Assembly (NCBI GenBank): GCA_037442865.1
Contig: JBBIPM010000003.1
Span: 1 to 34,168, forward strand
DNA: 34,168 nucleotides
Direction: 5' to 3'
From: Candidatus Woesearchaeota archaeon
GTDB taxonomy: Archaea; Nanobdellota; Nanobdellia; Woesearchaeales; UBA525
Part shown: positions 14,209 through 34,078 of the stretch, piece after piece
Position numbering within the stretch: position 1 is the stretch's first letter
Layout: each line of letters opens with the position of its first letter
Notes under the pieces: model-generated
The model's database searches: none
What the model was told of the DNA's origin: nothing
What the model saw: only the letters and a program-made list of their open reading frames with translations
Program-made: the position numbers and the translations under genes

Positions 14209-15534
14209 ATGGCGTTCCTCGACACGGTGCTCCAGAACTTGCCGGAGGTGCAGGCGCCGACGGAGAAGCGGCTCGCCTTCAAGGAGAAGGTGAAGTGGAC
14301 GCTGGTCGTCCTCCTCCTCTATTTCATCCTGGGGATGATTCCGCTTTTCGGCCTCGGCGCGAATGCGCTGCAGCAGTTCCAGTTCCTCGAGATCGTGCTG
14401 GGCGCGAGTTTCGGCTCCATCATCACGCTCGGCATCGGCCCCATCGTCACCGCCTCTATTGTCTTGCAGCTCCTGAACGGGAGCGGAATCGTCAAGTTCG
14501 ATCTGACGAGCCATGAGGGGAAGGCCCGTTTCCAAGGGATCCAGAAGCTCCTCGCCATCTTTTTCATCATCGTGGAAGGGTTCATCTACGTCCTGACGGG
14601 AGGGCTCTCCCCGGAAGTGGGGATTCCTGTCTGGGTACTCGTTTTCCAGCTCTTCCTTGGCGGCATCCTAATCATGCTGATGGATGAGGTCGTCTCGAAA
14701 TGGGGCTTCGGCTCGGGCATCAGCCTCTTCATCGCGGCCGGGGTCTCGAAGGAGGTCTTCGTCCGTGCCTTCACCTGGTTGCCCAGCCCCACGAATCCTG
14801 ATATCCCTGCCGGTGCGGTCCCCGCCGTCTTCACCGCGCTGAGCGCCGGCGACCCGACGACGGCGGCGATCGAGGTCGCCATTCTCGTCGCCACCGTGGC
14901 GGTCTTCCTCTTTGTCGTCTATACGCAGGCGATGAAGGTGGAGATTCCGCTCAGTTTCGGCCGGATCAGAGGGCACGGAATACGGTGGCCGCTCAATTTC
15001 TTCTACACCAGCGTCATCCCAGTCATCCTGATCGCGGCGTTGCTGGCGAACTTCCAGCTGCTTGGGCACCTCTTCCCCTCCTTCTCCTGGCTCGCCGACC
15101 TGGTGAACAGGCCGAACATCGTGAGCCAGATCATCACCGGGAGCTTTGGTTGGTCCTCTGCGTGGCAGTCGCTCCTCTATGTCCTGATCTTCATGGTCGG
15201 TAGCCTCGTCTTTGGCCTCTTCTGGGTCCAGACGGCCGGGCTCGACCCGGCGTCGCAGGCGCGGAACATCATGAACAGCGGACTTCAGATTCCAGGGTTC
15301 CGGAAGGACCAACGGGTGCTGGAGCGGATGCTGGAGCGGTACATCTGGCCCTTGACCGTGGTCGGCTCCCTCGCCGTCGGGTTCCTGGCGGCTGTCGCCG
15401 ACCTGACCGGGGCGATCGGCTCCGGCACCGGCCTCCTGCTCACCGTCATGATCGTCTACCAGCTCTACCAGAGCATCGCGCAGCAGCACCTCGTCGACAT
15501 GAACCCGATGATGCGGAAGTTCATGGGGCGGTAA
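14209..15534 (+). CDS. secY: preprotein translocase subunit SecY
   Basis: 441 aa, polytopic. The N-terminus LPEVQAPTEKRLAFKEKVKWTLVVLLLYFILGMIPLFG and the position after rpl15 are characteristic. Confidence 0.96.
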   Translation: MAFLDTVLQNLPEVQAPTEKRLAFKEKVKWTLVVLLLYFILGMIPLFGLGANALQQFQFLEIVLGASFGSIITLGIGPIVTASIVLQLLNGSGIVKFDLTSHEGKARFQGIQKLLAIFFIIVEGFIYVLTGGLSPEVGIPVWVLVFQLFLGGILIMLMDEVVSKWGFGSGISLFIAAGVSKEVFVRAFTWLPSPTNPDIPAGAVPAVFTALSAGDPTTAAIEVAILVATVAVFLFVVYTQAMKVEIPLSFGRIRGHGIRWPLNFFYTSVIPVILIAALLANFQLLGHLFPSFSWLADLVNRPNIVSQIITGSFGWSSAWQSLLYVLIFMVGSLVFGLFWVQTAGLDPASQARNIMNSGLQIPGFRKDQRVLERMLERYIWPLTVVGSLAVGFLAAVADLTGAIGSGTGLLLTVMIVYQLYQSIAQQHLVDMNPMMRKFMGR

Positions 15535-15535
15535 G

Positions 15536-16288
15536 ATGGGACTCTCCTCCTTTTTCGATCCCGTCCTGGCTCCTCTCCTCTCCTTGCCGCCGTTCTGGGC
15601 GATCCTCGTCATCTCGTTCCTCTTGGCGCTCGTCACGACGTTCATCTACAAGTATGCCACCGACCAGGCGCGGATGAAGGAGCTGAAAACGAAGGTGAAG
15701 GCGACGAACGAGCGGATGAAGAAGACGAAGGATGATCCGAAGAAGCTGATGAAGATCCAGCAGGAGGCGATGGCGATGAACCTGGAGCTGATGAAGCACA
15801 GCTTCAAGCCGACGCTCTACACGATGCTTCCCATCCTGCTCATCTTCTGGTGGATGGGTGCCACGTTCGCGTATCACAACCTGGCGCCCGGCGAGGAGTT
15901 CACGCTCACCGCCACCTTCGCCCCCGGGGTGGAGCGCGCCTCGCTCGTCGTGATCCCTGAGCTCGAGCTCCTCTCGGAGCAGGAGCAGGCGGTGAACGGT
16001 TCCGTCTCCTGGACGTTACGCGGAGGCCTCGGCGAGTACAAGGCGACGGTCTCGGTGCCGAACGCTGGGGCTGAGGAGAAGCGTTTCCTCATCGCCGAGG
16101 ATCGGCGCTACGCGCCGCCGGTCCAGCAATACAAGGGGGTGGTGAAGAGCATCACGCTTTCGAATGAGGCGGTGAAGCCGCTCGGCTCGCTCTCCCTCTT
16201 CGGCTGGCGTCCGGGCTGGCTCGGCACCTACATCCTGCTGAGCATCGCGTTCAGCATCCTCCTCCGGAAAGCGCTCGGCGTCGTCTGA
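15536..16288 (+). CDS. DUF106 / Mj0480-like Oxa1-superfamily insertase homolog with a large TM2-TM3 insertion
   Basis: 250 aa, starting 1 nt after the secY stop. TM1 (FWAILVISFLLALVTTFIY) is followed by a K/E-rich coiled coil (MKELKTKVKATNERMKKTKDDPKKLMKIQQEAMAMNLELMK), then TM2, a non-hydrophobic segment of about 115 aa, and TM3. Confidence 0.75.
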   Translation: MGLSSFFDPVLAPLLSLPPFWAILVISFLLALVTTFIYKYATDQARMKELKTKVKATNERMKKTKDDPKKLMKIQQEAMAMNLELMKHSFKPTLYTMLPILLIFWWMGATFAYHNLAPGEEFTLTATFAPGVERASLVVIPELELLSEQEQAVNGSVSWTLRGGLGEYKATVSVPNAGAEEKRFLIAEDRRYAPPVQQYKGVVKSITLSNEAVKPLGSLSLFGWRPGWLGTYILLSIAFSILLRKALGVV

Positions 16289-24465: not shown

Positions 24466-25375
24466 TCACGTAGAACGCCTCGTCGCCGACCGCGAAGGCG
24501 CGGTACGTCCATCGCTTCCGCCGGAGGAGCTTCTCGAACCACGCGCGCCGTTCCCGCGGGATCCGCTTCTTTCCGCCGATCGAGACGGTGGGGAAGCTGA
24601 CGACGAGCCATTCGGCCTTCACCGCGTCGAGGAGCTTCGCCGAGACGTTCCGCTCCGCCGTTTCCAGCGAGTCGAGGAGCTTGAAGAGGAACGCGACGTC
24701 GACCGTCGCCAGCTCAGCGAGCTTCTCATGCTCCGTGACGAGATCCAGCCCGTGCGTCAATCCCCTGACTCGCTTCTTCCTGAAAAACTCCTTGATCTGG
24801 GCGAGCGCCTCGTTCGGCAGGTCGACCGCGATGTAGAGTGGCGTGCAGCCGAGCTGGTCGTAGCTGTACGGGTTGTAGCCGCACCCCAGGTCCAGGATCG
24901 CGCGCGGCTCCCCGGTGAGGGCGAAGATCCGTCGGTAGATCTCCAGGTAGTGCGGCAGCCGTTCCCTACTGCTCTGGTGGAGCGCCAACGCGTCCCGCGC
25001 CTTCGACGTGTCGGCAGCGAGGGTGGCGAGCACCTGCCGCTTTCTCCTCGGCTTCTCGGCGTCGAAGAGGCCGTACACCTTCCGCAGGGATTCCCGCACG
25101 CTCTTCTTCAGCGCGTCGTGCTCCTTGCTCTTCGCGAACGACCCGTAGCTCGTCGCGGCCTCGACCCTCTTCCGGAGCTTCGCGTCTTTCTTCAGCGCCT
25201 CCTCCACCTTCCTCCGGACGACGGCGTCACCGAGGGTGGAGAGTTCGCGCTTCTGCTTCACCGCCGCGACGACGCCGACGATGACTGTTTCCTGCACGGT
25301 TTCTCGTCCCTCTCGTTCTTCCCTCATGCGCCTTTTCTTCGGAGTCCTCTTCGTAGCGATCGTCATGCTCACCAT
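24452..25375 (-). CDS. FmrO/ArmA-RmtB-family 16S rRNA (guanine-N7) methyltransferase homolog
   Basis: 307 aa. From memory of RmtB, these align well: LALHQSSRERLPHYLEIYRRIF...ILDLGCGYNPYSY with LSLHASTKERL...LYDFIF...VLDIACGLNPLAL; DVAFLFKLLDSLE with DLALIFKLLPLLE; VVSFPTVSIGGKKR with AVSFPTRSLGGRGKG; AWFE with AWFE. The start ATG overlaps the pelota stop (ATGGTGA). Confidence 0.75.
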   Translation of the reverse strand: MVSMTIATKRTPKKRRMREEREGRETVQETVIVGVVAAVKQKRELSTLGDAVVRRKVEEALKKDAKLRKRVEAATSYGSFAKSKEHDALKKSVRESLRKVYGLFDAEKPRRKRQVLATLAADTSKARDALALHQSSRERLPHYLEIYRRIFALTGEPRAILDLGCGYNPYSYDQLGCTPLYIAVDLPNEALAQIKEFFRKKRVRGLTHGLDLVTEHEKLAELATVDVAFLFKLLDSLETAERNVSAKLLDAVKAEWLVVSFPTVSIGGKKRIPRERRAWFEKLLRRKRWTYRAFAVGDEAFYVIRKR

Positions 25376-26403
25376 CTCCGTATCGCAACGACGCCGCCAA
25401 GCGGGTCGATCTTCCCCTGGGCCTCCTCCGAGGAGAGGACCCTGATGGCGGCGCGCGCCTCCTCCGCCGCTGCGAGCGTCCGTTCCAGTTCCGCGAACGT
25501 CCCGCGCTCGCGCCGCTTCCTGATCTCCCGCTCCGTCACGATTAGCGTCGCGACGTTCCCGGCCGTGACGGCGTCGGCCACGGCGTCCGCGCCGTACGCC
25601 AGCCGCTCCCCACCGAGCGCAGCTAGCGCCTCCTCGACCGAGAAGAGCTCGCGCATCGTCCGGTTCTCCCGGAGGAGCTTCTCCACTTCAGGGCGGGCGA
25701 GCAGCTCCCTGATCGCGGTCCGTTCCACGGTGCTGATCGTCGTCAGCACCGTCTTCTTCCGCAACGGTGGCGGCAGCTCCTTCTCCAAATACTCCTTCCA
25801 GAAGGCGGGAGCCCCTGCGACGATGTGCGCGTAGCTCCCCCGCGCGTCGTGCGCTTCGAGCGCCGCGACGAGCTCCGCGTAGAAGTTCTTGGCCTCCTTC
25901 TCGTCCTGCGCCTTCTTCCGCACCTTCCCCTTGAGCCGGGTCAGCTCCTCCACGCCGCGCCGCGTCACGCCGTACAGCTTCGCCTCCTCCCGGTCGAAGA
26001 GGAGGACGAGGAGCGCGGCGTCCGCCCGGGTCGCCTCGTCGAGCTTCTCGACGTGGTAGCCGAGCCATCGCCTCTTCACGATCGCGATCTCCTCCCCTGG
26101 TTCGAGAGAGAAGCTGTGATGGTCGCCGCGCGGCACGTCGTCCGGGCCGTCGGTGATGCTCCCCAGGGCGCGGAGCGTGGCGCCGTCGTAGTCGAGCTTC
26201 TCCACGCGGAGCGTCAGGGTCATCCTCCTCCGCGTCACGGCGCTCTTCCCTTCCTGCGCGTTCCCGATCCTCACCTTCCGTTCCGTAGAACCCCTGATTG
26301 CGTCGCCTGGCTCGATGACGCCGTTCAGCGTCCAAAGGTCGTCCGTCGATTCGATCCGGATCCTGATGACGCCGGTCTTCAGATCCTGGTGGAGTATCCG
26401 CAT
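25369..26403 (-). CDS. pelA: pelota (aDom34) mRNA surveillance / ribosome rescue factor
   Basis: 344 aa. The N-terminus (MRILHQDLKTGVIRIRIESTDDLWTLNGVIEPGD) and the eRF1-like domains (YGADAVADAVTAGNVATLIVT) fit pelota. Confidence 0.92.
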   Translation of the reverse strand: MRILHQDLKTGVIRIRIESTDDLWTLNGVIEPGDAIRGSTERKVRIGNAQEGKSAVTRRRMTLTLRVEKLDYDGATLRALGSITDGPDDVPRGDHHSFSLEPGEEIAIVKRRWLGYHVEKLDEATRADAALLVLLFDREEAKLYGVTRRGVEELTRLKGKVRKKAQDEKEAKNFYAELVAALEAHDARGSYAHIVAGAPAFWKEYLEKELPPPLRKKTVLTTISTVERTAIRELLARPEVEKLLRENRTMRELFSVEEALAALGGERLAYGADAVADAVTAGNVATLIVTEREIRKRRERGTFAELERTLAAAEEARAAIRVLSSEEAQGKIDPLGGVVAIRRW

Positions 26404-26504
26404 CAGTCCCCTCTGCCTTCGTTCTTCCCTTCGTTCCCCCCTTTCTTCTCTCTGGTTTCTCTCTGGTTCCGCGTCCTCGGTGTTCGTTGAGACAAAGAGA
26501 AATC

Positions 26505-26516
26505 TTTATATATAAA
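26505..26516. promoter_or_regulatory. perfectly palindromic TATA element TTTATATATAAA between divergent operons
   Basis: The 12-mer is self-complementary. It sits about 26 nt upstream of the + strand ATG at 26535 (leaderless geometry). It is also the only AT-rich element upstream of the minus-strand pelota start at 26403. Confidence 0.55.
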
Positions 26517-26534
26517 TCTTTGTAGGGTCGTCGT

Positions 26535-27737
26535 ATGGTGTCGAGGCGCGGCCAGGAGTTCCGAGCGAGCACGCCGCTCGTCATCCTCCTCGTCGGCGCG
26601 ATCCTGATTCTCTACATTCTCTTCCTGCCTCCGGCGCAGCGCGAAGCGCTCCTCTCCGGTACTGGCGGAGGCGGCGGAGGCGGCTACCTCCCCCCTGGCC
26701 CGGGCCCCGTCGGCGGCGGCGTCGTGCTCATGGACAAGTATGTCGGCACGCTCCTCGCCAAAGGCCCTGACTCGGTGGAGCACGCAATGCCGAGCACCAC
26801 CGTCTTCACCGCGACGAACACCGAGGAGGTGAAGTTCATCGACAGCATGACGGTGAAGAAGAGCGCCTTCTCCTCCCAGGAGGCGTCGCTCACGTTCCGC
26901 GCCGACCCGCGCGTGGCGACGAACTATCTCCTCACCTTCAACGTGGACCAGGCGAACGGCCCCCTGCAGATCCTCCTTAACAGCAAGCCGATCTTCGATC
27001 GCGTCGTCACGACACGGAGCCCCGAACCGATCAAGCTCCCGGCGGAATATCTCCGAGCGGAGAACACGCTCACCTTCCGGGCCGGCGGCTCGGGCTGGCG
27101 TTTCTGGCGGGCGAACAACTACGGGCTGCGGAACATCCTCGTCAGCGCGGACGTGACGAGCTATCAGGGGTCATTTTCCGAGCAGCACTTCACCATCACC
27201 CCTGACGAGCACCAGATGCTCGAGCGCGGCCTCCTCGAGTTCGTGCCGCAGTGCGACCCGCGCCAAACCGGACGGCTCACCGTCACGGTCAACGGCAAGC
27301 TCCTCTACGCCGGCTTCATCGACTGTGGCGTCCTCACCCGGCAGGACGTGGCGCGCGAACTCCTCACCATCGGCGACAACCGTGTCGGCTTCACCTCGAA
27401 CAAGGGGAGCTACACGATCGACCGGCTCAAGCTCGTCTCGCTCCTGAAACGGCAGGAGTACCCAGTCTTCTACTTCAACCTGCCGCCTGACATGTTCCAG
27501 CAGGCGAACGTCTTCGCCGGTCGCGTCGTTCTCACCCTCCGGTTCACCGACGGCAACTCGCTCAAGCGAGGCAGCGTCGTCATCAACGGCTTCACCGACA
27601 CGTTCCAGACGAAGAACTACCACTACCAGGCGACGCTCGACCCGAACATCCTCATCCCCGGCGCGAACTCGGTCCAGATTGCGCCGCAGGGCGAGGCGCT
27701 CCACGTCGCGGAGCTCCGCGTCGAGCTCCTAGGGTGA
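26535..27737 (+). CDS. N-terminally anchored secreted protein with a poly-Gly/Pro linker and three beta-sandwich-like repeats (envelope operon gene A)
   Basis: 400 aa. MVSRRGQEFRASTPLVILLVGAILILYILF anchor, GTGGGGGGGYLPPGPGPVGGG linker, then three modules of about 100 aa sharing the pattern L.F...G.L.I.LN(G/S)....L..G.N.I.F....Y.I..L.V. Confidence 0.8.
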   Translation: MVSRRGQEFRASTPLVILLVGAILILYILFLPPAQREALLSGTGGGGGGGYLPPGPGPVGGGVVLMDKYVGTLLAKGPDSVEHAMPSTTVFTATNTEEVKFIDSMTVKKSAFSSQEASLTFRADPRVATNYLLTFNVDQANGPLQILLNSKPIFDRVVTTRSPEPIKLPAEYLRAENTLTFRAGGSGWRFWRANNYGLRNILVSADVTSYQGSFSEQHFTITPDEHQMLERGLLEFVPQCDPRQTGRLTVTVNGKLLYAGFIDCGVLTRQDVARELLTIGDNRVGFTSNKGSYTIDRLKLVSLLKRQEYPVFYFNLPPDMFQQANVFAGRVVLTLRFTDGNSLKRGSVVINGFTDTFQTKNYHYQATLDPNILIPGANSVQIAPQGEALHVAELRVELLG

Positions 27738-29782
27738 GGAGAAACGATTCTATGGCGGTTGACGGGCGAATAGCGGCGTTGCAGCGGGAACTCGCGAATG
27801 TGGACGTCCTCCTCGTGGACGCCGAAGGAGAGGAGCGAGAAGTCCTGAGCCGGCGGCGAGCGGAGCTCCGTGGCGTGTTGGCGCAGAATCTCAAGGCCGC
27901 TCGCAATTATGCATCCGCAAACGTTTCCGCTTCCTCTGACTCCCACGGCGGGGGCACGATGAAATTCTCTGATTACACGGACCTTCGCGAGCGGATGCTC
28001 GCCGAAGCGAAGGCCGAGAAGGAGGCGGCCGAGGCGAAGACCGCCGAGACGGAAGCTGAGAAGGAGGCGGCCGAGGCGAAGACCGCCGAAGCGAAGGCCG
28101 AGAAGGAGGCGGCCGAGGCGAAGACCGCCGAGACGGAAGCTGAGAAGGAGGCGGCTGACGCGAAACGGAAGGCGCGGGAGGCGGAGAAACCCGGGCTCCT
28201 CCGTCGCGTCGCGGACGGCTACTCCAAGGCGAACACGGGCTTCATGAATGCGCAGGACTCGGTCGCGCGCCGCTACAACGGTCTGAACAAAAAGGGCTTC
28301 ATGAATGCGCAGGACGCGCTGATGAAGCACCCCTACCACCTCTGGCTCTTCGCCTTCGTCGCCCTGCTCATCCACGCGTATGATGCGAGCACGGGCTTCT
28401 CGCGGGGCGCAGGGAACGCCACCCTGATCTTCACCGCCTACGCGCTCTTCGCCGCCTGGGCGATCTTCGTCTACTATAAGAGCAGCTTCACGCGGGAGAG
28501 TCTCCGTTATCTCGGCGTCAGCCTCTTCGCCTTCGCCCTGCCCCTCATCCTGAAAGCGCCGTTCCTCAGGACGAACTCCTACGTCGTCGTCGCCCTGACG
28601 ATCCTCCCCGTCTGGTTCCTCTTCATCGCGTTCCAGAGCGACAATAAGCCGCTCCTGTTCACCGCACGCCTCCTCGTCATCGGCTTCGCCCTCCTCCTCG
28701 TCATCATCGCCGTCGGCACGGTCACCCTCCCCGATTTCGGGATGCGCGGCGTCAACCTCGGCGGCCCCTTCAAGGAGTTCTGGCAGGACGTCCAGGACGC
28801 CTGGGCGAAGATCAAGGAGCGGTTCCGGAACGCCGGGTTCTTCAACGTCAAGGAGTGGCGGCAGCGGATCAACGTGACGTTCAACCCGTACGCGCAGTTC
28901 TACACCGGCCAGGTGGAGGAGAACAAGCAGGAGCCGCAAGGCGTCTTCCTCACCGACGTCAAGAGCCTCTACCCCGTCAACTACGTCGGCAGCCCCATCA
29001 CGCTGATGACCCGGCTCGAGGCGAAGACGTTCCTCGAAGAGCCGGTGAGGGTGACGCCGAGTTGTCGGCTCGAACGGGCAGGGAAAGGCGGCTGGCTCGG
29101 GAAGGCGGAGCCGCGCGGCCCCATCGAGGTGAACAAGCAGCTCACCCGCGATATCCTCTGTACCTTCCAGGGCGAGAACGTCACGGCAGGCACCTACGCC
29201 GGCTTCGTCGGCGCCTCGTTCAACTTCGAGACCTGGGCCTACATCACTAACACGTTCGTCTCGAAGCAGCTCATCGAACAGCACCTCCGCCAAGGGCGCG
29301 ACATCAACACGGAACTGGCCATCCCGAAACGGACCGAGGCGGTCTACACCAACGGACCCGTCGAGATCGGGATCTCCGCCTCGGAGCAGCCTATCGACGT
29401 GACGCTCGAGCCGCTCGACGGCAAGTTCCTCCATCAACGGTTCGGCTTCACCCTGGCGAGCAGGTGGAGCCAGGGGACGCTGCGGAGCGTCGACTCGGTT
29501 GACATCCTCGTCCCAGAGCCGTTTGCCCTCGAAGGATGCGTGCCGCAGCTTGCGGGGAGGATGGCTGAGCAAGGGTTCACGCGCTACACCTTCGACCGCG
29601 CAAAGGTGCAGGTGGATCCGCGCCTCGACTACCGAACCGTGACGTGCGAGCTCGTCCTCCCTGACCGGGCGGCGGCGGAGCGGGTCCTCGCCTTCGGCGA
29701 GAAGACGCCCGCGACGTTCGTCGTCATCGCGCGGTATGTCTACGAGCTCGAGAAACAGCTCCCGGTGAGGGTGAGCGAATGA
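27734..29782 (+). CDS. 5-TM membrane protein with a cytosolic coiled-coil repeat region and a large ectodomain (envelope operon gene B)
   Basis: 682 aa from GTG 27734 (GTGA overlap with gene A). ATG 27752, preceded by GGTGAGGAG, is the likelier start. Five hydrophobic helices lie between about aa 215 and 345. The C-terminal ~330 aa ends ...FVVIARYVYELEKQLPVRV, like genes C-E. Confidence 0.85.
   Translation: MRRNDSMAVDGRIAALQRELANVDVLLVDAEGEEREVLSRRRAELRGVLAQNLKAARNYASANVSASSDSHGGGTMKFSDYTDLRERMLAEAKAEKEAAEAKTAETEAEKEAAEAKTAEAKAEKEAAEAKTAETEAEKEAADAKRKAREAEKPGLLRRVADGYSKANTGFMNAQDSVARRYNGLNKKGFMNAQDALMKHPYHLWLFAFVALLIHAYDASTGFSRGAGNATLIFTAYALFAAWAIFVYYKSSFTRESLRYLGVSLFAFALPLILKAPFLRTNSYVVVALTILPVWFLFIAFQSDNKPLLFTARLLVIGFALLLVIIAVGTVTLPDFGMRGVNLGGPFKEFWQDVQDAWAKIKERFRNAGFFNVKEWRQRINVTFNPYAQFYTGQVEENKQEPQGVFLTDVKSLYPVNYVGSPITLMTRLEAKTFLEEPVRVTPSCRLERAGKGGWLGKAEPRGPIEVNKQLTRDILCTFQGENVTAGTYAGFVGASFNFETWAYITNTFVSKQLIEQHLRQGRDINTELAIPKRTEAVYTNGPVEIGISASEQPIDVTLEPLDGKFLHQRFGFTLASRWSQGTLRSVDSVDILVPEPFALEGCVPQLAGRMAEQGFTRYTFDRAKVQVDPRLDYRTVTCELVLPDRAAAERVLAFGEKTPATFVVIARYVYELEKQLPVRVSE
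28001..28168 (+). repeat. 42-nt tandem repeat x4 (84-nt super-unit x2) encoding AE(A/T)(K/E)AEKEAAEAKT
   Basis: Units at 28001-28042, 28043-28084, 28085-28126 and 28127-28168. Units 1 and 3, and units 2 and 4, are near-identical at the nucleotide level. Confidence 0.93.
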
Positions 29783-31263
29783 GTGCGCATCATTCTTCTT
29801 CGTCGCCGCGCTCCTCGCTCCGACCGTCGTCGACTCTCACCTCCTCGCGCTGCTCCGCTCCCGTCTCCTCGCGCTCTTCCCGTCTCGCTCGCTTCTCATT
29901 CCGCTCGCCTTCCACCCCTTCCGCTCGTTCTTCTCACCCTCGTCCCGACCCGTCGGTTCGACGCGGCTCATCCATGACGATCGCCTCCTTCTTTACCATC
30001 CTCCCGCACCTCGCGCTCCTTTTTCTACTCCTCCTACTCCTTTCTGCCTGCACACCAGGGCCGAGGAGCACCAACTACCGGACAGGGAACGACGGCATCG
30101 TGCTGAGCTTCGAGCGCGGCACGCCGCCGAAAGAGGCGTATGAGGAGATGCGTGTCCCAATCGCGGTCCGGCTCTGGAACAAGGGGGCCCATCCGGTGAA
30201 CTACACCGACATCGTCTTTGCCCTGAAAGGGGACCCGTTCTACGTCGCCATCACCCCTGATCCGCTCCTCGAGCAGGCGCGGAAAGGGGAGATCCCGAAC
30301 TATCAAGGGGAGCGAGAGGATGAATTCCTCATCCTCCTCGGCAAGAGCCCGGGCTACGAGAACGGGAGATGGCTCGACCTCCTCCCTGTGGCGGAGTTCC
30401 TTCCCATCAAGGGGCTCCGCGAGAGCCCGGAGACGCAGCTCTTCGCCTCGGTCTGCTACCCGTACGAGACGCTCTTCTCCGCCGAGGTCTGCGTTGACGC
30501 GAACGCGTTCAACGGGAACGTGCAGCGCCAGGTCTGCAGCGCCCAATCATTGACGGCGTCGAGCCAAGGGGCGCCGGTGGCGGTGACGCTCGTCGAGAAT
30601 AGGCCGAGTCCGCTCCGCGTCGCCATGGAAGGCGGCCGCGGCTACGTCGACATCGTCCAGCCCGTCTTCCTCATCCATCTCCAGAACGTCGGGGACGGCA
30701 CGGTGCTGATGCCCGGACCGGATTCCCGGCGAGAGCTCGACGAGGCGTGCGCCCTCCGCGTCCCACCGGAGCGGCTCAACAAGGTGGCGGTCTCCGCCTC
30801 GCTCAGCGGCCTCAACCTCACTTGCACCCCGTCAGAGGCGATCCTCCGTGACGACAAAGCGTTCTTCTCCTGCGTCTTGCCCCCGGGGGAGGTCCCCTTG
30901 GAGATGCCAAACTACCTCGCCACGCTCGTCGTCAAGGCGCGGTACCTCTACCAGTCCAGGTTAAGCGTGGACGTGGCGATTACGCGGCGTCCAGAAGGGG
31001 TGGCGAGCACCGACCCCACGTTCCGGGAACGCGACCTCGACCCAGGATACATCGACGGCTTCCCGCGCTGCGAGTTCTGCAGCCGCTCCCCCGGTGATTC
31101 ACGCTGCGACTGGCCGGAGAAGACGCGCGGACTCGTCCGGGATGGCGCCTCGTTCGGCTGCACGTGCGGCCAGGAGGAGTGCCTCCGACTCGCCCCGTCC
31201 GGGAAGTGCGTCTACGGCTCGAGCTGGTGCCCGGGCACGAACCAGTGCTGCACGAAGCAATAG
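29779..31263 (+). CDS. lipobox lipoprotein with a Cys-rich C-terminal module (envelope operon gene C)
   Basis: The ATG at 29779 is in an ATGA overlap with gene B, but the first 65 codons are C/T-tract S/P/R-rich. The alternative ATG 29974 gives MTIASFFTILPHLALLFLLLLLLSAC. The mature part is paralogous to genes D and E. Confidence 0.8.
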   Translation: MSAHHSSSSPRSSLRPSSTLTSSRCSAPVSSRSSRLARFSFRSPSTPSARSSHPRPDPSVRRGSSMTIASFFTILPHLALLFLLLLLLSACTPGPRSTNYRTGNDGIVLSFERGTPPKEAYEEMRVPIAVRLWNKGAHPVNYTDIVFALKGDPFYVAITPDPLLEQARKGEIPNYQGEREDEFLILLGKSPGYENGRWLDLLPVAEFLPIKGLRESPETQLFASVCYPYETLFSAEVCVDANAFNGNVQRQVCSAQSLTASSQGAPVAVTLVENRPSPLRVAMEGGRGYVDIVQPVFLIHLQNVGDGTVLMPGPDSRRELDEACALRVPPERLNKVAVSASLSGLNLTCTPSEAILRDDKAFFSCVLPPGEVPLEMPNYLATLVVKARYLYQSRLSVDVAITRRPEGVASTDPTFRERDLDPGYIDGFPRCEFCSRSPGDSRCDWPEKTRGLVRDGASFGCTCGQEECLRLAPSGKCVYGSSWCPGTNQCCTKQ

Positions 31264-31294
31264 TTTTAAAAACCTCCTTATTGGTGATGGTCTC

Positions 31295-32656
31295 ATGCCC
31301 CGTCGTCAATGCGTCGCGTCGCCGTTCCCGCGGCGCCTTTCCCCCGTGTCCCGCTGTCCGCGTCCGCCCTTCTCTTCCGCGCCTTTCTCCATCCCCTCCG
31401 CTTCCTTTTCCTTGCTCGCCACATCCCTCCTCCTCTTTCTGCTCCTCGTCGCTGCCTGCACCCCGTATGCGGGCCGCGGCCGAGGCGTCGACGCTGAACG
31501 AGCGAAGTACTACCAGGGGCAGCAGGGTGTCGAGATACGCATCGATCAGCTGCCGCCGAAGCTCTACTACTACGGGAACGTGCCGGAGACGAGCCATAAT
31601 GAGTTCCCCTTCGCAGTCGAGGCATGGAATAAGGGAAGCGCCTATTCGCGCGGCGCAGTCTTCATCTCCGGCTACAACCCGCACATAATCGAGATCGAGC
31701 AGATCCCGATCACCGGGCTCTACCCCGGCGCCTGCTCCTTGCGGCTCGGCGATTACAGCCTCAACAAGTTTGGCATCACCCTGCAGTGCGGAGAGAACTT
31801 CCGCTGGTCGGGTAGCGAAGGGAACTGGTTCGAATCCCTCTCGCTCCGCGGCAAGACGTGGTTCACGGAGAGTCCCTTGGAGAACCTCATCCTGAACTTC
31901 AACAGCCGGAACGGCGGAGAGCAGATCGACCTGATCTTCGACAGCTTCCGCTTCTCACGCGACTACCGGCAGCGCGGCCTCGTCCTGATCGCAATCCTCG
32001 CCGGGCTCAGCTTCGAGAAGTATCTGGGGCAGGAGTTCCTCCTCGCAGGGAACACGTACGAGTATCCTGGCGGCGAGCTGGACTACATCGAGTACAACGC
32101 GCGGATTGTCAACTGGCCAGAAGGCGCCGACGAGATCCCGCAGACGTTCAAGGCGACGAGCTGCTACATGTACACCACCTTCGCCGCCCCCGTCGTCTGC
32201 ATCGATCCGCAGCCCTACGCCGAGACGAGGAAGGTCTGCACTCCGCTCCAGGCGAGCTACAGCTCAGGCCAAGGCGCGCCGGTCGCGGTCACGCGCGTCA
32301 CGCAGGAGAACACGCCGCGCACCGCGGTCTTCCACTTCACGATCCGGAACGTCGGCGACGGCACGGTCTTCGACGCCGGGCAGCTCGAGAAGTGCAGCCC
32401 ATACTTCCCGGGCGGAGCGAAGAGCAGCGACCTGAACGTCGTCTGGATCGGCTCCGTCAGGATTGACGACACGGATCTCGTCTGCACGCCCGAACGCTAT
32501 GTCCGGCTCCAGAACGGCCAGGGTTCATTCACCTGCACGTATCCCATCCAGCACGCGCAGCTCAACAGCGCCTACCAGACGCCCATCGTGATAGAGCTCT
32601 GGTACGGATATTCGAAAGACGTAGTGAGAACGATCCCGATCAAGCGGGTCGCATAG
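31295..32656 (+). CDS. lipobox lipoprotein (envelope operon gene D)
   Basis: ATG 31295 is preceded by GGTGAT and lies 31 nt after the gene C stop. A long R/P/S n-region precedes SLLATSLLLFLLLVAAC. Motifs CY.Y, SSGQGAPVAVT, RNVGDGTV and the terminal WYGYSKDVVRTIPIKRV are shared with C and E. The tracked ORF start at 31094 overlaps gene C and is rejected. Confidence 0.82.
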   Translation: MPRRQCVASPFPRRLSPVSRCPRPPFSSAPFSIPSASFSLLATSLLLFLLLVAACTPYAGRGRGVDAERAKYYQGQQGVEIRIDQLPPKLYYYGNVPETSHNEFPFAVEAWNKGSAYSRGAVFISGYNPHIIEIEQIPITGLYPGACSLRLGDYSLNKFGITLQCGENFRWSGSEGNWFESLSLRGKTWFTESPLENLILNFNSRNGGEQIDLIFDSFRFSRDYRQRGLVLIAILAGLSFEKYLGQEFLLAGNTYEYPGGELDYIEYNARIVNWPEGADEIPQTFKATSCYMYTTFAAPVVCIDPQPYAETRKVCTPLQASYSSGQGAPVAVTRVTQENTPRTAVFHFTIRNVGDGTVFDAGQLEKCSPYFPGGAKSSDLNVVWIGSVRIDDTDLVCTPERYVRLQNGQGSFTCTYPIQHAQLNSAYQTPIVIELWYGYSKDVVRTIPIKRVA

Positions 32657-32668
32657 GAGGAGAGAACC

Positions 32669-33646
32669 ATGAAACGAGCGATGTTCATCATGATTGCGGC
32701 GATGCTCCTGCTCGCCGCGTGCGGACAGACGGCGACAGGCCCTGACCTGACCCGGCCGTTCATCGGCGGCAAGGTCGGCGTCGGCGTGGGTCTGATCGAC
32801 GGGATGCCCCCGGCGGCGGTCTACGACAAGCAGCGGATGAACTTCGGGGTCGGCGCATCGCTCCACAACCTCGGCGAGGCGGACATAGGCCCGAATACTC
32901 CTAACCCGTTCGTCCGCGTCTCGCTCGACGGCTTCTCCCCGCGCGCCTTCGGACTCACCGCCTCGGAGATGACGCGCGACCTGGATCGGCCGCTGCTCGG
33001 CAGCAAGAAGAACTTCGATGGCACCATCCTGCCCGGGCAGCTCGCCAACATCGTCTTCGAGCCCCTCAGCTACCAGGATCAGCTGCAGGGGAACTTCGTC
33101 CAGAACATGGTGGTGCGGACCTGCTATGACTATGAGAACTGGGCCACGGCGCCGATCTGCTTCAAGAACGAGATCTATCAGACGGCGCAGGATATCTGCT
33201 CCCTGACGGGCGAGAAGTTCCCGCAGAACAGCGGCGGCCCGCTCCATGTCACCTCGTTGGTCCAGAACCCGCTGGGGCCGTACAAGGTGATGATCAGCTT
33301 CGTGCTCGAGCATGTCGGCACCGGCGACTTCTATGGCCGCACCGCGGAGGAGACGTGCAACCCGAACACGATGAATATGAACAAGTACAAGGTCGAGGTG
33401 GCGGTGACGAGCCGCGATCCGGAGATGGGGATCGAGTGCAGCACGCTCAGTTCCTCCTCCGCTAACCGGAACAGGGGGACGATCACGCTCTTCGCCGGCG
33501 CGCCGCAGACCGTGACGTGCACCCTGACTGCGCCGCCAGGGAGCGGGAACACGATCTTCACCGACCCGATCATGATTAGCGCGAAGTATCGGTACGGCGA
33601 GATGCTGACCCAGCCGATCATCATCCAGGCGGTCGGCGACCGGTAG
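32669..33646 (+). CDS. lipobox lipoprotein (envelope operon gene E)
   Basis: 325 aa. Textbook signal MKRAMFIMIAAMLLLAAC. GGAGGAG lies upstream of the ATG. Motifs TCYDYENWATAPICF, DICS, GGPLHVTS, EHVGTGDF and AKYRYGEMLTQPIIIQAV are shared with C and D. Confidence 0.88.
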   Translation: MKRAMFIMIAAMLLLAACGQTATGPDLTRPFIGGKVGVGVGLIDGMPPAAVYDKQRMNFGVGASLHNLGEADIGPNTPNPFVRVSLDGFSPRAFGLTASEMTRDLDRPLLGSKKNFDGTILPGQLANIVFEPLSYQDQLQGNFVQNMVVRTCYDYENWATAPICFKNEIYQTAQDICSLTGEKFPQNSGGPLHVTSLVQNPLGPYKVMISFVLEHVGTGDFYGRTAEETCNPNTMNMNKYKVEVAVTSRDPEMGIECSTLSSSSANRNRGTITLFAGAPQTVTCTLTAPPGSGNTIFTDPIMISAKYRYGEMLTQPIIIQAVGDR

Positions 33647-33763: not shown

Positions 33764-34078
33764 CTACTCCGGCGCGTTGATGATCTCGAAGACGAGGAGC
33801 GCGGTAATGATGATGGTGAGGAAGAGGTTGAAGCCGGGGCCGAGGTAGAGGACGAGCACGTTGTTCAGCACGAATGCGGTGAAGATGACTGCTGAGAAGA
33901 ACGTCTCGCCGCGACGCCAGAGTAGGATCGCGTAGGCGAGGAGCGCGGCGCTGATCAGGAAGAGCGATTCGAGCGGCAGGTAATACGGGATCAGCCCGTA
34001 GAGGATCCAGAGCGAGATGAGGAGCGTGAAGCGGAGGATGGTGCTCGTTCCATACTCGCCGCGGCCCCAGCGCGCCAT
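33764..34078 (-). CDS. hypothetical small membrane protein (about 3 TM)
   Basis: 104 aa, three long hydrophobic stretches, convergent with gene E. A TATA-like element lies at leaderless distance upstream. Confidence 0.55.
   Translation of the reverse strand: MARWGRGEYGTSTILRFTLLISLWILYGLIPYYLPLESLFLISAALLAYAILLWRRGETFFSAVIFTAFVLNNVLVLYLGPGFNLFLTIIITALLVFEIINAPE

What the first reader, a model, noticed from the sequence alone, without database searches (positions are those of the whole stretch)
26505..33646. Five-gene envelope operon built around a paralogous lipoprotein/ectodomain family with no recognisable characterised homolog
Genes A-E are packed as one unit: a GTGA overlap, an ATGA overlap, then gaps of 31 nt and 12 nt, behind a single leaderless-type TATA. 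A is an N-anchored protein with a Gly/Pro linker and three tandem beta-sandwich-like modules. B has a cytosolic repeat coiled coil of about 200 aa, five TM helices and an ectodomain of about 330 aa. C, D and E each carry a lipobox (LLSAC, LVAAC, LLAAC). C, D and E share an ordered set of motifs: Y.G..G near the N-terminus; (S/T)CY.Y...(V/I)C...(V/I)C; S.G(A/G)P(V/L).VT; (N/H)VG(D/T)G; two further CT/TC cysteines; and a terminal (K/R/W)Y.Y......(V/I).(V/I) strand. The B ectodomain ends with the same strand (ARYVYELEKQLPVRV). That points to one membrane-embedded subunit plus three lipid-anchored paralogs and an accessory triple-repeat protein. It looks like a hetero-oligomeric surface assembly for attachment, envelope scaffolding or cell-cell contact. 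No ATPase, protease, sortase or transporter gene accompanies it, and I cannot place the family.
Basis: partly seen in the sequence, partly recalled or inferred. Interest (0 to 1): 0.8.

Follow-up and report, generated by a model that had tools for sequence, protein, structure and literature searches.

The report
Conserved Woesearchaeota surface operon linked to murein hydrolases
Five adjacent genes encode a membrane-anchored cell-surface protein set found across Woesearchaeota (tiny DPANN archaea), built from protein families with no known relatives; in some other lineages two of its proteins carry enzymes that cut bacterial cell walls, which hints that the set is used to contact or feed on bacteria.

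Summary
Genes A-E (26535-33646, + strand) are real. They keep the order A-B-C-D-E on one strand in all 38 related loci that contain all five families. A, D and E are about as conserved as the neighbouring housekeeping gene Pelota.

C, D and E are clear paralogs with a near-universal lipobox cysteine. The B ectodomain is a probable but weakly supported fourth paralog. A is unrelated to them and has three internal repeats.

None of the five matches Pfam, NCBIfam, PHROGs or PDB sequences. Foldseek on good AlphaFold models of D and B found only generic tandem beta-sandwiches.

The new clue comes from orthologs. The C-terminal end of C or B is variable. In the window, C ends in a 10-cysteine module. 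In other lineages that module is followed by murein hydrolases of at least seven Pfam families: SLT, 3D, DUF2272, M23, Glucosaminidase, Muramidase and Amidase_2.

My best reading (about 0.45) is a membrane-anchored platform that binds and cuts bacterial peptidoglycan. The window's own proteins carry no hydrolase, and complex formation is untested.

The parts
26505..26516 (+). TATA-like box TTTATATATAAA, ending 18 nt before the ATG of A. It is a candidate promoter for a short-leader or leaderless transcript.
   Evidence: Read from the sequence. The same CTTTATATATAAA element lies at the same distance upstream of A in the closest relative, L086. Not tested experimentally.
26535..27737 (+). Gene A (400 aa). 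It has an N-terminal hydrophobic anchor (residues 13-31) preceded by RRGQ, then a Gly/Pro-rich linker, then three tandem ~100-aa all-beta repeats with two conserved Cys.
   Evidence: GC3 is 0.90. Internal repeats: hhalign 2e-11 and 4e-6. Twelve sub-threshold Pfam matches among the 39 orthologs fall on galactose-binding-like / CBM jelly-roll families. The conserved N-terminal consensus is [KR][GA]Q followed by LYILFLPP..R..LL.
27752..29782 (+). Gene B. The ORF opens at GTG 27734 (682 aa), but the likely start is ATG 27752. It has a variable cytoplasmic Lys/Glu/Ala-rich N-terminal region, five TM helices (about residues 200-331) and a 338-aa ectodomain of two beta-sandwich domains with four conserved Cys.
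   Evidence: Ortholog alignment. Shine-Dalgarno-like GAGGAG lies 9 nt before ATG 27752. AlphaFold model: pLDDT 82. Hydropathy and Lys/Arg flanks. 1212 representative clusters in 1.84 billion proteins match the B profile.
28000..28164 (+). 84-nt x 2 (42-nt x 3.5) tandem repeat encoding the AEAKAEKEAAEAKTAETE repeats in the cytoplasmic N-terminal region of B.
   Evidence: Tandem Repeats Finder: 97% matches for the 84-nt period. This region is not conserved among orthologs.
29779..31263 (+). Gene C, a lipoprotein. The ORF runs from ATG 29779; an alternative start is ATG 29974. The lipobox LLSAC has its Cys at codon 91 (30049-30051). Two beta-sandwich domains follow.
   Evidence: Paralogy. Lipobox Cys in 65 of 70 orthologous ORFs. 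Start ambiguity.
31069..31260 (+). Cys-rich C-terminal module of C (10 Cys in about 64 aa). In other lineages murein hydrolase domains follow this module.
   Evidence: No Pfam or PDB match. A profile of this module matches 48 C ORFs in related loci and two B tails. In 7 of 8 hydrolase-bearing C orthologs it sits between the beta-sandwich core and the hydrolase.
31264..31272 (+). A/T-rich TATA-like element TTTTAAAAA between C and D; a possible internal promoter.
   Evidence: Read from the sequence. A similar GTTTAAAAAG lies upstream of D in L086. This is inference only.
31295..32656 (+). Gene D (453 aa), a lipoprotein. The lipobox LVAAC has its Cys at codon 55 (31457-31459). It has two beta-sandwich domains, a poorly modelled insertion (about residues 150-245) and eight conserved Cys.
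   Evidence: AlphaFold model: pLDDT 80.6, pTM 0.76. 354 homologs, all unnamed or 'hypothetical'. Invariant columns.
32669..33646 (+). Gene E (325 aa), the shortest lipoprotein paralog. The lipobox LLAAC has its Cys at codon 18 (32720-32722). A GGAGGAG Shine-Dalgarno-like site lies upstream.

Best explanation
The block is a conserved Woesearchaeota (class Nanoarchaeia, DPANN) operon. It encodes an extracytoplasmic, membrane-anchored protein set built from families with no known relatives.

**Proposed base (inferred).** B is held in the membrane by five helices and has a variable cytoplasmic tail. C, D and E are held by a lipid on the lipobox cysteine. All four expose similar two-beta-sandwich bodies, and I propose that together they form a membrane-proximal base.

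**Proposed glycan binder (inferred).** A is anchored by an N-terminal helix. A flexible Gly/Pro linker carries three lectin-like jelly-roll repeats.

**Proposed outward-facing ends.** The C-termini of C and B are the variable ends. In this window, C ends in a disulfide-rich 10-Cys module. In other lineages that module, on C or on B, is followed by peptidoglycan hydrolases of at least seven different families.

**Most likely function.** The set is a surface platform that positions wall-binding and wall-cutting modules against bacterial murein. It could serve attachment to, penetration of, or feeding on bacteria or their cell-wall debris. In this organism no hydrolase is fused, so the platform would either bind only or recruit an enzyme encoded elsewhere.

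**Shown:** gene order, paralogy, lipoboxes, predicted folds, and hydrolase fusions in orthologs.
**Inferred:** complex formation, topology, glycan binding by A, and the bacterial target.
For: **Synteny.** All 38 loci that hold all five families are colinear on one strand. Of these, 27 have Pelota divergent upstream, and no locus shows a different order. The same layout holds in L083, where B is only about 22% identical.

**Conservation.** Median identity over 34 loci is A 39%, D 39% and E 42%, against 39% for Pelota; B is 29% and C 31%.

**Translational coupling.** B and C overlap by 4 nt in 24 of the B-C junctions.

**Extracytoplasmic location.**
- Lipobox cysteines are conserved.
- Conserved Cys counts outside the signal peptides are even.
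- Five TM helices with a Lys/Arg-rich N-terminal flank place B's ectodomain outside.
- Published work reports that lipoproteins, and the lipidation enzyme family AliA, occur in DPANN (PMC12462473).

**Hydrolase fusions above Pfam cut-offs.**
- On C: SLT (L010, L011, L027), DUF2272 (L013, L027), 3D (L012, L074), Peptidase_M23 (L068), Glucosaminidase (L020).
- On B: SLT (L085, P0207, P0236, P0269, P0285), M23 (P0286), Muramidase plus Amidase_2 (P0213).
- By local jackhmmer, 18 of the 31 B representatives with a tail of at least 150 aa carry such a domain.
- Only B and C vary in C-terminal length; D and E are uniform.
- The window's own Cys-rich module precedes the hydrolase in 7 of 8 such C orthologs.
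- The L010 and L011 tails contain QES and G(I/L)(L/M)Q. From my own knowledge, these are the catalytic motifs of family-1 lytic transglycosylases.

**A as a possible glycan binder.** Recurrent weak hits fall on carbohydrate-binding jelly rolls.

**Literature.** Murein-type lytic transglycosylase proteins were already noted as a peculiarity of Woesearchaeota and Pacearchaeota and were proposed to act on bacterial hosts (PMC8204110; PMC10936187).
Against: - The window's B and C have no hydrolase domain.
- Only about 12-15% of lineages sampled carry a fusion: 18 of 144 B representatives, and 9 of about 60 species-level loci.
- Conservation at housekeeping level, and a location among ribosomal, SecY, PheRS and Pelota genes, fit a general envelope role at least as well as a host-specific one.
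- Nothing shows that the five proteins bind one another.
- A's carbohydrate-binding assignment rests on sub-threshold hits.
- The fused enzymes could be opportunistic cargo on any stable surface anchor.
- No Woesearchaeota host is known, so the bacterial target is inferred from enzyme specificity alone.
Confidence: 0.45

Rival explanations
1. The set is a general envelope scaffold. B, C, D and E form a housekeeping membrane-proximal layer that organises the space under the S-layer or anchors the S-layer or a glycocalyx. A binds the cell's own glycans. The hydrolases in some lineages are exo-enzymes that happened to be tethered to a convenient stable anchor.
For: - Conservation matches that of Pelota.
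- The block is essentially single-copy and lies among housekeeping genes.
- Most lineages, including this window, have no fused hydrolase.
- The predicted folds are the tandem Ig-like beta-sandwiches typical of surface-layer and adhesion proteins.
- B's cytoplasmic coiled-coil tail could link the envelope to cytoplasmic partners.
Against: - Seven different murein-specific enzyme families sit at the same two C-termini and never on A, D or E. That argues for a functional link rather than chance tethering.
- The Cys-rich module that precedes them is conserved even where no enzyme follows.
- Other genes in Woesearchaeota have been annotated as S-layer genes and are highly expressed (PMC11606122).
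Confidence: 0.3
2. The set is a nutrient capture or uptake device. The paralogous lipoproteins and A bind extracellular polymers or fragments such as muropeptides, lipids or glycans. They pass them to the five-helix domain of B, which acts as a channel or receptor.
For: - DPANN archaea depend on scavenged building blocks (PMC8204110, PMC10936187).
- One membrane protein sits next to several binding-type lipoproteins.
- The number of lipoprotein paralogs varies from 3 to 5 between lineages.
- Fused hydrolases would generate the fragments to be taken up.
Against: - The TM domain of B is the least conserved part. The His/Asp and Pro/Trp positions conserved in close relatives are lost in the distant homologs P0140 and P0141, whereas the ectodomain motifs persist.
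- No ATPase or known transporter fold is present.
- The lipoproteins are all-beta sandwiches, not solute-binding-protein folds.
Confidence: 0.1
3. The set is a type-IV-pilus-related surface structure. A is a pilin-like subunit with a class III signal peptide, cleaved by a prepilin peptidase and assembled by machinery encoded elsewhere. B-E form its base.
For: Most A orthologs have [KR][GA]Q a few residues before a 20-22-residue hydrophobic stretch. This resembles archaeal prepilin cleavage sites (the resemblance rests on my own knowledge of archaeal class III signals). Archaellin genes are expressed in Woesearchaeota (PMC11606122).
Against: - There is no Pfam Class_IIIsignal hit.
- In the window and its close relatives a charged Arg follows the putative site (RRGQEFRAS).
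- The strictly conserved LYILFLPP..R..LL after the helix is unlike a pilin core.
- No assembly ATPase or platform gene is linked in any locus.
Confidence: 0.07
4. The block is a viral or mobile-element cargo, for example envelope or fusion proteins of an integrated element, rather than a cellular system.
For: Multi-cysteine beta-sandwich ectodomains and lipoproteins do occur in archaeal virus envelopes (my own knowledge).
Against: - The chromosomal position next to Pelota is fixed across dozens of species.
- GC content matches the rest of the window.
- No PHROG hit.
- No BFVD fold match at E <= 0.001.
- No relative in IMG/VR contigs.
Confidence: 0.01

Closest known systems
Murein-like lytic transglycosylase proteins of Woesearchaeota and Pacearchaeota (fam00969, Module 98; Castelle et al. 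2021, PMC8204110)
   Same: Same organisms. Both are extracellular SLT-domain proteins proposed to act on bacterial cell walls. Module 98 also holds 51 mostly unannotated families shared by these two groups. Some B and C orthologs found here carry exactly such an SLT domain.
   Different: The paper describes a domain in large proteins. It does not describe a five-gene operon, the lipoprotein paralogs, the A protein or the Cys-rich adaptor. I could not test whether fam00969 equals the B or C family. The window's own proteins have no SLT domain.
Bacterial-type lipobox lipoproteins in archaea (AliA/AliB pathway, Haloferax volcanii; PMC12462473)
   Same: C, D and E have a signal peptide with [LVI][ASTVI][GAS]C and a conserved Cys. 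The paper predicts that lipoproteins and AliA are common in DPANN.
   Different: This is only an anchoring mode, not a function. Lipidation was not shown for these proteins. The mature domains are unrelated to any characterised archaeal lipoprotein.
Surface enzyme-display scaffolds built from beta-sandwich modules (cellulosome scaffoldins with cohesins), and wall-anchored or virion-associated peptidoglycan hydrolases
   Same: Membrane- or wall-anchored beta-sandwich bodies carry interchangeable glycan-cutting modules at a distal end. Carbohydrate-binding jelly rolls accompany them. Foldseek lists cohesin dyads among the weak hits.
   Different: There is no sequence or convincing structural homology (TM-score <= 0.17). 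No cohesin-dockerin pairs were detected. The anchors are lipid and TM helices in an archaeal membrane. The target is another organism's murein, not a plant polymer.
Tandem Ig-like surface proteins (integrin alpha thigh/calf domains, Vibrio RbmA, transglutaminase C-terminal barrels, complement MG domains)
   Same: These are the best Foldseek matches for both the D and B models: two consecutive beta-sandwich domains.
   Different: The matches are at fold level only: TM-score normalised to the query 0.12-0.17, identity 6-10%, rmsd above 20 A. No shared motifs or function can be transferred.
Archaeal S-layer proteins and their membrane anchors (e.g. Sulfolobus SlaA/SlaB, Haloferax csg)
   Same: Extracellular, multi-beta-sandwich, membrane- or lipid-anchored, and conserved within a lineage (my own knowledge of these systems).
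   Different: No profile or fold match to any solved S-layer protein. Here four paralogs plus a lectin-like protein sit in one operon. Other Woesearchaeota genes are the ones annotated as S-layer genes.

Membership tests
Lipobox (bacterial-type) lipoproteins | N-terminal signal peptide with a hydrophobic core followed by [LVI][ASTVI][GAS]C | tested here: met
   LLSAC (C), LVAAC (D) and LLAAC (E). A Cys after a hydrophobic stretch is found in 65/70, 73/75 and 75/77 orthologous ORFs, typically at position 16-30. The Cys is invariant in alignments A1, A5 and A6.
Lipobox (bacterial-type) lipoproteins | Actual lipidation and signal-peptide cleavage; presence of the AliA/AliB machinery in the genome | not testable with these tools
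   Only 34 kb of the genome is available. The literature reports AliA in DPANN in general (PMC12462473).
Peptidoglycan hydrolases (SLT, 3D, M23, Amidase_2, Muramidase, Glucosaminidase, DUF2272) | Pfam domain match above the gathering score in the window's own proteins | tested here: not met
   No such hit for window A-E even at E <= 1. The domains are present only in orthologs of C and B from other lineages.
Archaeal class III (prepilin-type) signal peptide proteins | [KR][GA] cleavage site directly followed by a ~20-residue hydrophobic helix; match to the Class_IIIsignal model | tested here: inconclusive
   In the regex count 22 of 60 A orthologs show [KR]..[GA]Q; by eye most of the rest do too. 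The window has RRGQEFRAS with a charged residue after the site. No Pfam hit to a class III signal model.
Galactose-binding-like / CBM jelly-roll domains (for the A repeats) | Profile match above threshold to a carbohydrate-binding module family | tested here: inconclusive
   Only sub-threshold hits, but they recur in one fold group: BetaGal_ABD2 (4), CBM_35 (3), CBM-like (2), BcsB (2) and GH2_N (1) matches among 39 members.
Known S-layer proteins | Sequence or fold similarity to a characterised S-layer protein | tested here: not met
   No PDB profile hits for the D, E, B or A families. Foldseek top hits are integrins, RbmA and transglutaminases, not S-layer proteins.
Solute-binding proteins of ABC/TRAP transporters | Two alpha/beta lobes; linked permease and ATPase genes | tested here: not met
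   The D and B-ectodomain models are all-beta. No transporter genes lie in the window or in the orthologous loci.
Viral envelope / fusion proteins | Similarity to viral protein families or structures; presence on viral contigs | tested here: not met
   PHROGs: none. BFVD Foldseek: no match at E <= 0.001. IMG/VR scan: no relative.

The most novel reading that the evidence does not exclude
The operon encodes the conserved core of a Woesearchaeota contact and feeding apparatus that binds and breaches bacterial peptidoglycan. That would make it the first molecularly defined machinery for an archaeon living on bacteria, and it would imply that bacteria are the main hosts or prey across this very large, uncultured archaeal group.
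Probability: 0.25. Interest if true: 0.9.

Novelty: categorically new. Interest (0 to 1): 0.68.

Why it matters
Woesearchaeota are among the most widespread uncultured archaea. Their hosts are unknown, and so is the way they attach to other cells.

This operon is present throughout the group: the B profile matches 1212 clusters at 50% identity. A, D and E evolve as slowly as a translation factor, and the operon is built from families with no annotation anywhere.

The link between its two variable ends and seven families of murein hydrolases gives a concrete, testable lead on two points: that bacteria are the partners, and which proteins make the contact. It also gives cryo-ET, proteomics and binding studies on enrichments a defined set of targets. 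Finally, it adds a large set of conserved predicted lipoproteins to the newly opened field of archaeal lipoprotein biology.

Tried and rejected
**Searches that found nothing.**
- Pfam, NCBIfam and PHROGs on the five window proteins gave nothing meaningful.
- Member-wise Pfam scans of the D, A and B alignments gave no consistent family, apart from weak CBM-type hits for A.
- Profile searches of PDB sequences with the D, B, A and E families and with the C tail returned nothing.
- Foldseek of the D and B models against PDB, and of D against BFVD, returned only generic beta-sandwich matches.
- A scan of viral contigs found no relative.

**Searches hampered by the query.** The first B homolog search was swamped by the low-complexity N-terminus and returned 7 hits. 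The repeat without the N-terminus still gave only 21.

**Homology tests that failed.**
- A vs C/D/E: none.
- The N-terminal ectodomain half of B vs the N-domains of C, D and E: not significant.

**Ideas considered and dropped.**
- I considered B's TM domain as an enzyme or channel because of the conserved His214/Asp217. I down-weighted this because those residues are lost in distant homologs.
- I considered a viral origin and rejected it.

**Literature.** Searches on Woesearchaeota surface proteins, DPANN attachment organelles and conserved hypothetical clusters found no description of this operon.

**Inconclusive.** Codon-position GC could not settle the start of C, because a Ser/Pro/Arg-rich peptide produces the same pattern.

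Full report
**What is in the sequence.**

The window is a high-GC (about 64%) stretch of archaeal core genome. It holds:
- a ribosomal-protein block (L3, L4, L2, L22, S3, S4e, L32e, L18, S5, L15);
- SecY;
- an EMC3/YidC-like insertase;
- both PheRS subunits;
- TrmB;
- an FmrO-type methyltransferase;
- Pelota on the minus strand at 25369-26403.

Five + strand ORFs follow Pelota divergently. All have coding-type GC3 of 0.81-0.90:

| Gene | Coordinates | Length |
|---|---|---|
| A | 26535-27737 | 400 aa |
| B | 27734-29782 | 682 aa as an ORF |
| C | 29779-31263 | 494 aa as an ORF |
| D | 31295-32656 | 453 aa |
| E | 32669-33646 | 325 aa |

No terminator-like site interrupts the block on the + strand.

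A TATA-like box, TTTATATATAAA (26505-26516), ends 18 nt before the ATG of A. It is conserved in the closest relative found, L086.

- **Start of B.** Homolog N-termini align with the window's residues 7 onward (MAVDGRIAALQRE...), and GAGGAG lies 9 nt before ATG 27752. B therefore probably starts 14 nt after A's stop rather than at the overlapping GTG.
- **Start of C.** The first 65 codons of the C ORF are a CT-rich stretch encoding Ser/Pro/Arg. They are absent in L086, where C starts MRTTPLTLVV... a few bases after B's stop.
- **N-terminus of D.** D has a similar 35-aa insertion between a conserved MPRR start (MARR in L086) and the hydrophobic core. I cannot decide between ATG 29779 and ATG 29974 for C.
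- **Second promoter candidate.** An A/T-rich TTTTAAAAA (31264-31272) before D is also present in L086 and may be an internal promoter.
- **What stands.** Tight packing and co-orientation hold. A 4-nt B-C overlap is seen in 24 orthologous loci.

**The proteins.**

*C, D and E* are clear paralogs.
- BLASTP: C-D 1e-14, D-E 3e-9, C-E 3e-4.
- hhalign: E vs D 2.5e-26 over the C-terminal domain, and 1e-7 to 1e-13 between the N-terminal domains.
- The lipobox cysteine after a hydrophobic stretch is found in 65/70 C, 73/75 D and 75/77 E ORFs of related loci.
- A 51-sequence alignment gave a good AlphaFold model of D (pLDDT 80.6, pTM 0.76). It shows two beta-sandwich domains, a poorly ordered insertion and a very long final strand.

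*B* has three parts:
- a Lys/Glu/Ala-rich N-terminal region that varies in length and sequence between orthologs and contains a recent 84-nt tandem duplication;
- five helices, with a Lys/Arg-rich flank before the first, which puts the N-terminus inside;
- a two-beta-sandwich ectodomain with four conserved Cys (model pLDDT 82).

B's relation to C/D/E is weak but consistent. Three independent profile comparisons align the same C-terminal domain colinearly (vs D, E = 7.9e-3; vs E, E = 3.2e-4; vs C, E = 1.4e-3):
- FNFETWAY in B against CY.Y..(W/F)A;
- TNGPV against (G/S)G(A/G)P(V/L);
- a shared Cys;
- TVTC;
- the terminal (R/K)Y.Y strand.

The N-terminal half of B's ectodomain is not detectably related to C/D/E.

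*A* is not related to the others. It has:
- an N-terminal anchor;
- a Gly/Pro linker;
- three internal repeats (hhalign 2e-11 and 4e-6);
- twelve sub-threshold Pfam matches among its 39 orthologs, all to carbohydrate-binding jelly-roll families (BetaGal_ABD2, CBM_35, CBM-like, BcsB, GH2_N).

Its N-terminus has a conserved [KR][GA]Q a few residues before the hydrophobic helix, then LYILFLPP..R..LL. This resembles an archaeal prepilin-type signal, but no model matches it. I leave that open.

**Is there any characterised relative?**

No.
- Pfam, NCBIfam and PHROGs are empty for all five proteins.
- Member-wise Pfam scans of the D, A and B families add nothing consistent.
- Profiles of the D, B, A and E families find nothing in PDB sequences.
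- Foldseek of the D and B models against PDB returns only generic tandem Ig-like sandwiches: integrin alpha thigh/calf, RbmA, transglutaminase C-terminal barrels and complement MG domains. TM-scores normalised to the query are 0.12-0.17 and identity is 6-10%.
- The viral structure library gives no hit at E <= 0.001.
- IMG/VR holds no relative.
- All 354 D homologs that carry any name are 'hypothetical protein' from Woesearchaeota or Nanoarchaeota MAGs.

**Conservation.**

- A scan of one genome per GTDB species with the D profile returned 77 loci. Those whose record title gives an informative taxon are Woesearchaeota, Nanoarchaeota or Nanobdellota; about 20 carry a generic 'uncultured Methanosarcinales' title, which I take to be a placeholder, and a few others are labelled Euryarchaeota or Methanobacteriota.
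- After classifying ORFs with family HMMs, all 38 loci that contain all five families have them in the order A-B-C-D-E on one strand. The remaining loci are truncated subsets of that order. Twenty-seven have Pelota divergent upstream.
- Variation:
  - a subclade has a second E paralog;
  - a few loci duplicate D;
  - distant lineages have only about 320-aa lipoproteins.
- A B homolog only about 22% identical (P0141/P0144) still sits in Pelota(-)|A|B|lipoprotein|lipoprotein, and its A matches the A profile at 1e-125.
- Median identity to the window over 34 loci is A 39%, D 39% and E 42%, against 39% for Pelota; B is 29% and C 31%.
- The B profile matches 1212 clusters at 50% identity among 1.84 billion representatives, 721 of them at E <= 1e-30.

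This is a core, vertically inherited feature of a very large archaeal group.

**The functional clue.**

Lengths of D and E are uniform. C ranges from about 305 to 1142 aa, and B has C-terminal tails of up to 650 aa.

In the window, C ends with a 10-Cys module that has no Pfam or PDB match. A profile of this module matches 48 C ORFs and two B tails.

Pfam finds murein hydrolase domains in the long orthologs, all above gathering scores:

| Protein | Domain | Where found |
|---|---|---|
| C | SLT | L010, L011, L027 |
| C | DUF2272 | L013, L027 |
| C | 3D | L012, L074 |
| C | Peptidase_M23 | L068 |
| C | Glucosaminidase | L020 |
| B | SLT | L085 (inside an intact cluster), P0207, P0236, P0269, P0285 |
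| B | Peptidase_M23 | P0286 |
| B | Muramidase + Amidase_2 | P0213 |

- Seeding local jackhmmer searches with these domains shows that 18 of the 31 B representatives with tails of at least 150 aa carry such a domain. Four others carry beta/gamma-crystallin domains.
- In 7 of 8 hydrolase-bearing C orthologs the order is beta-sandwich core, then Cys-rich module, then hydrolase.
- The L010 and L011 tails contain QES and G(I/L)(L/M)Q. From my own knowledge these are the catalytic motifs of family-1 lytic transglycosylases.
- The closely related loci L010-L013 carry three different enzyme families at the same position, so these modules have been swapped repeatedly.

Murein is a bacterial polymer, so the target is presumably bacterial.

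Earlier genome surveys had noted murein-type lytic transglycosylase proteins as a peculiarity of Woesearchaeota and Pacearchaeota and suggested bacterial hosts (PMC8204110; PMC10936187). I found no description of this operon, of the lipoprotein paralogs, or of their connection with those enzymes.

**How it most likely works.**

*Shown:*
- the proteins are extracytoplasmic and membrane-tethered by prediction;
- four of them share a body plan;
- two of them have variable distal ends that host murein hydrolases in some lineages;
- the fifth looks lectin-like;
- the gene set is inherited as a unit.

*Inferred:*
- B, C, D and E assemble into a base at the membrane;
- the C-termini of B and C point outward;
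- A binds glycan on a flexible tether;
- the assembly engages bacterial peptidoglycan for attachment, wall penetration or scavenging.

I put this reading at about 0.45.

The main rival, at about 0.3, is a general envelope scaffold onto which enzymes were opportunistically tethered. Three points favour it:
- housekeeping-level conservation;
- the housekeeping genomic context;
- the absence of fused enzymes in most lineages, including this window.

Lesser rivals:
- an uptake device (0.1), weakened because B's TM domain is poorly conserved in distant homologs;
- a pilus-related structure (0.07);
- a viral origin, which is effectively excluded.

**Verdict.**

The core families are unknown to every library I could query, and the system has no described counterpart. 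I rate it categorically new at the level of family and system. The caveats are that the folds themselves are ordinary and that the function rests on domain fusions in orthologs, not on the window's own sequences.

Noticed in passing
window 29779-29973 and 31307-31410: CT-rich, in-frame stretches encode Ser/Pro/Arg-rich extensions ahead of the signal-peptide cores of C and D. The closest relative, L086, lacks both. Similar pyrimidine-rich sequence fills the Pelota-A intergenic region (26404-26500). It is unclear whether they are translated.
   Followed up: partly
window 28000-28164: A near-perfect 84-nt tandem duplication (42-nt period x 3.5) lies inside the cytoplasmic N-terminal region of B. 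That region is highly variable in length among orthologs. Just before the first TM helix sits a short conserved motif, GY..(A/V)N..F..AQ, which is sometimes duplicated.
   Followed up: partly
window 31264-31272; L086 upstream of 8001: An A/T-rich TATA-like element directly after the stop codon of C is conserved in the closest relative. It suggests an internal promoter for D-E.
   Followed up: no
window 33764-34078 (- strand): A small three-helix membrane protein (104 aa) lies convergent to E. It is conserved (57% identity) only in L086, is not part of the widely conserved set, and has no Pfam hit.
   Followed up: partly
window 1306-25375: The core-genome context is a ribosomal protein block, SecY (14209-15534) immediately followed by an EMC3/YidC-like insertase (15536-16288), PheRS beta and alpha, TrmB and an FmrO-type methyltransferase. 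The PheRS-TrmB-FmrO-Pelota-A-E arrangement recurs in L001, L003 and L086.
   Followed up: partly
B representatives P0220, P0222, P0259, P0288: Four B-family proteins carry beta/gamma-crystallin domains in their C-terminal tails instead of murein hydrolases (P0220 also matches Peptidase inhibitor I36). Several other tails are very Cys-rich (up to 34 Cys) and have no recognisable domain.
   Followed up: no
L003, L014-L016, L019, L022, L023, L025, L040, L050, L052, L062; L026, L030; L077: The number of lipoprotein paralogs varies. One subclade has a second E-like gene after E, two loci duplicate D, and L077 has three short C-like genes. In distant lineages (L076-L078, L083-L085) all the lipoproteins are about 320 aa, and the Cys-rich or enzyme tail sits on B instead of C.
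   Followed up: partly
L035, L036, L039, L041, L043-L045, L053, L056, L061, L063, L072, L075, L080: In some lineages A is 557-603 aa instead of about 400 aa, so it has an extra region of roughly 160-200 aa. Pfam found nothing in three of these proteins.
   Followed up: partly
window 27623-29572 (- strand) and other long antisense ORFs: Very long ORFs lie antisense to the real genes, for example 649 aa opposite B. They have non-coding GC3 patterns and are artefacts of the high GC content.
   Followed up: yes
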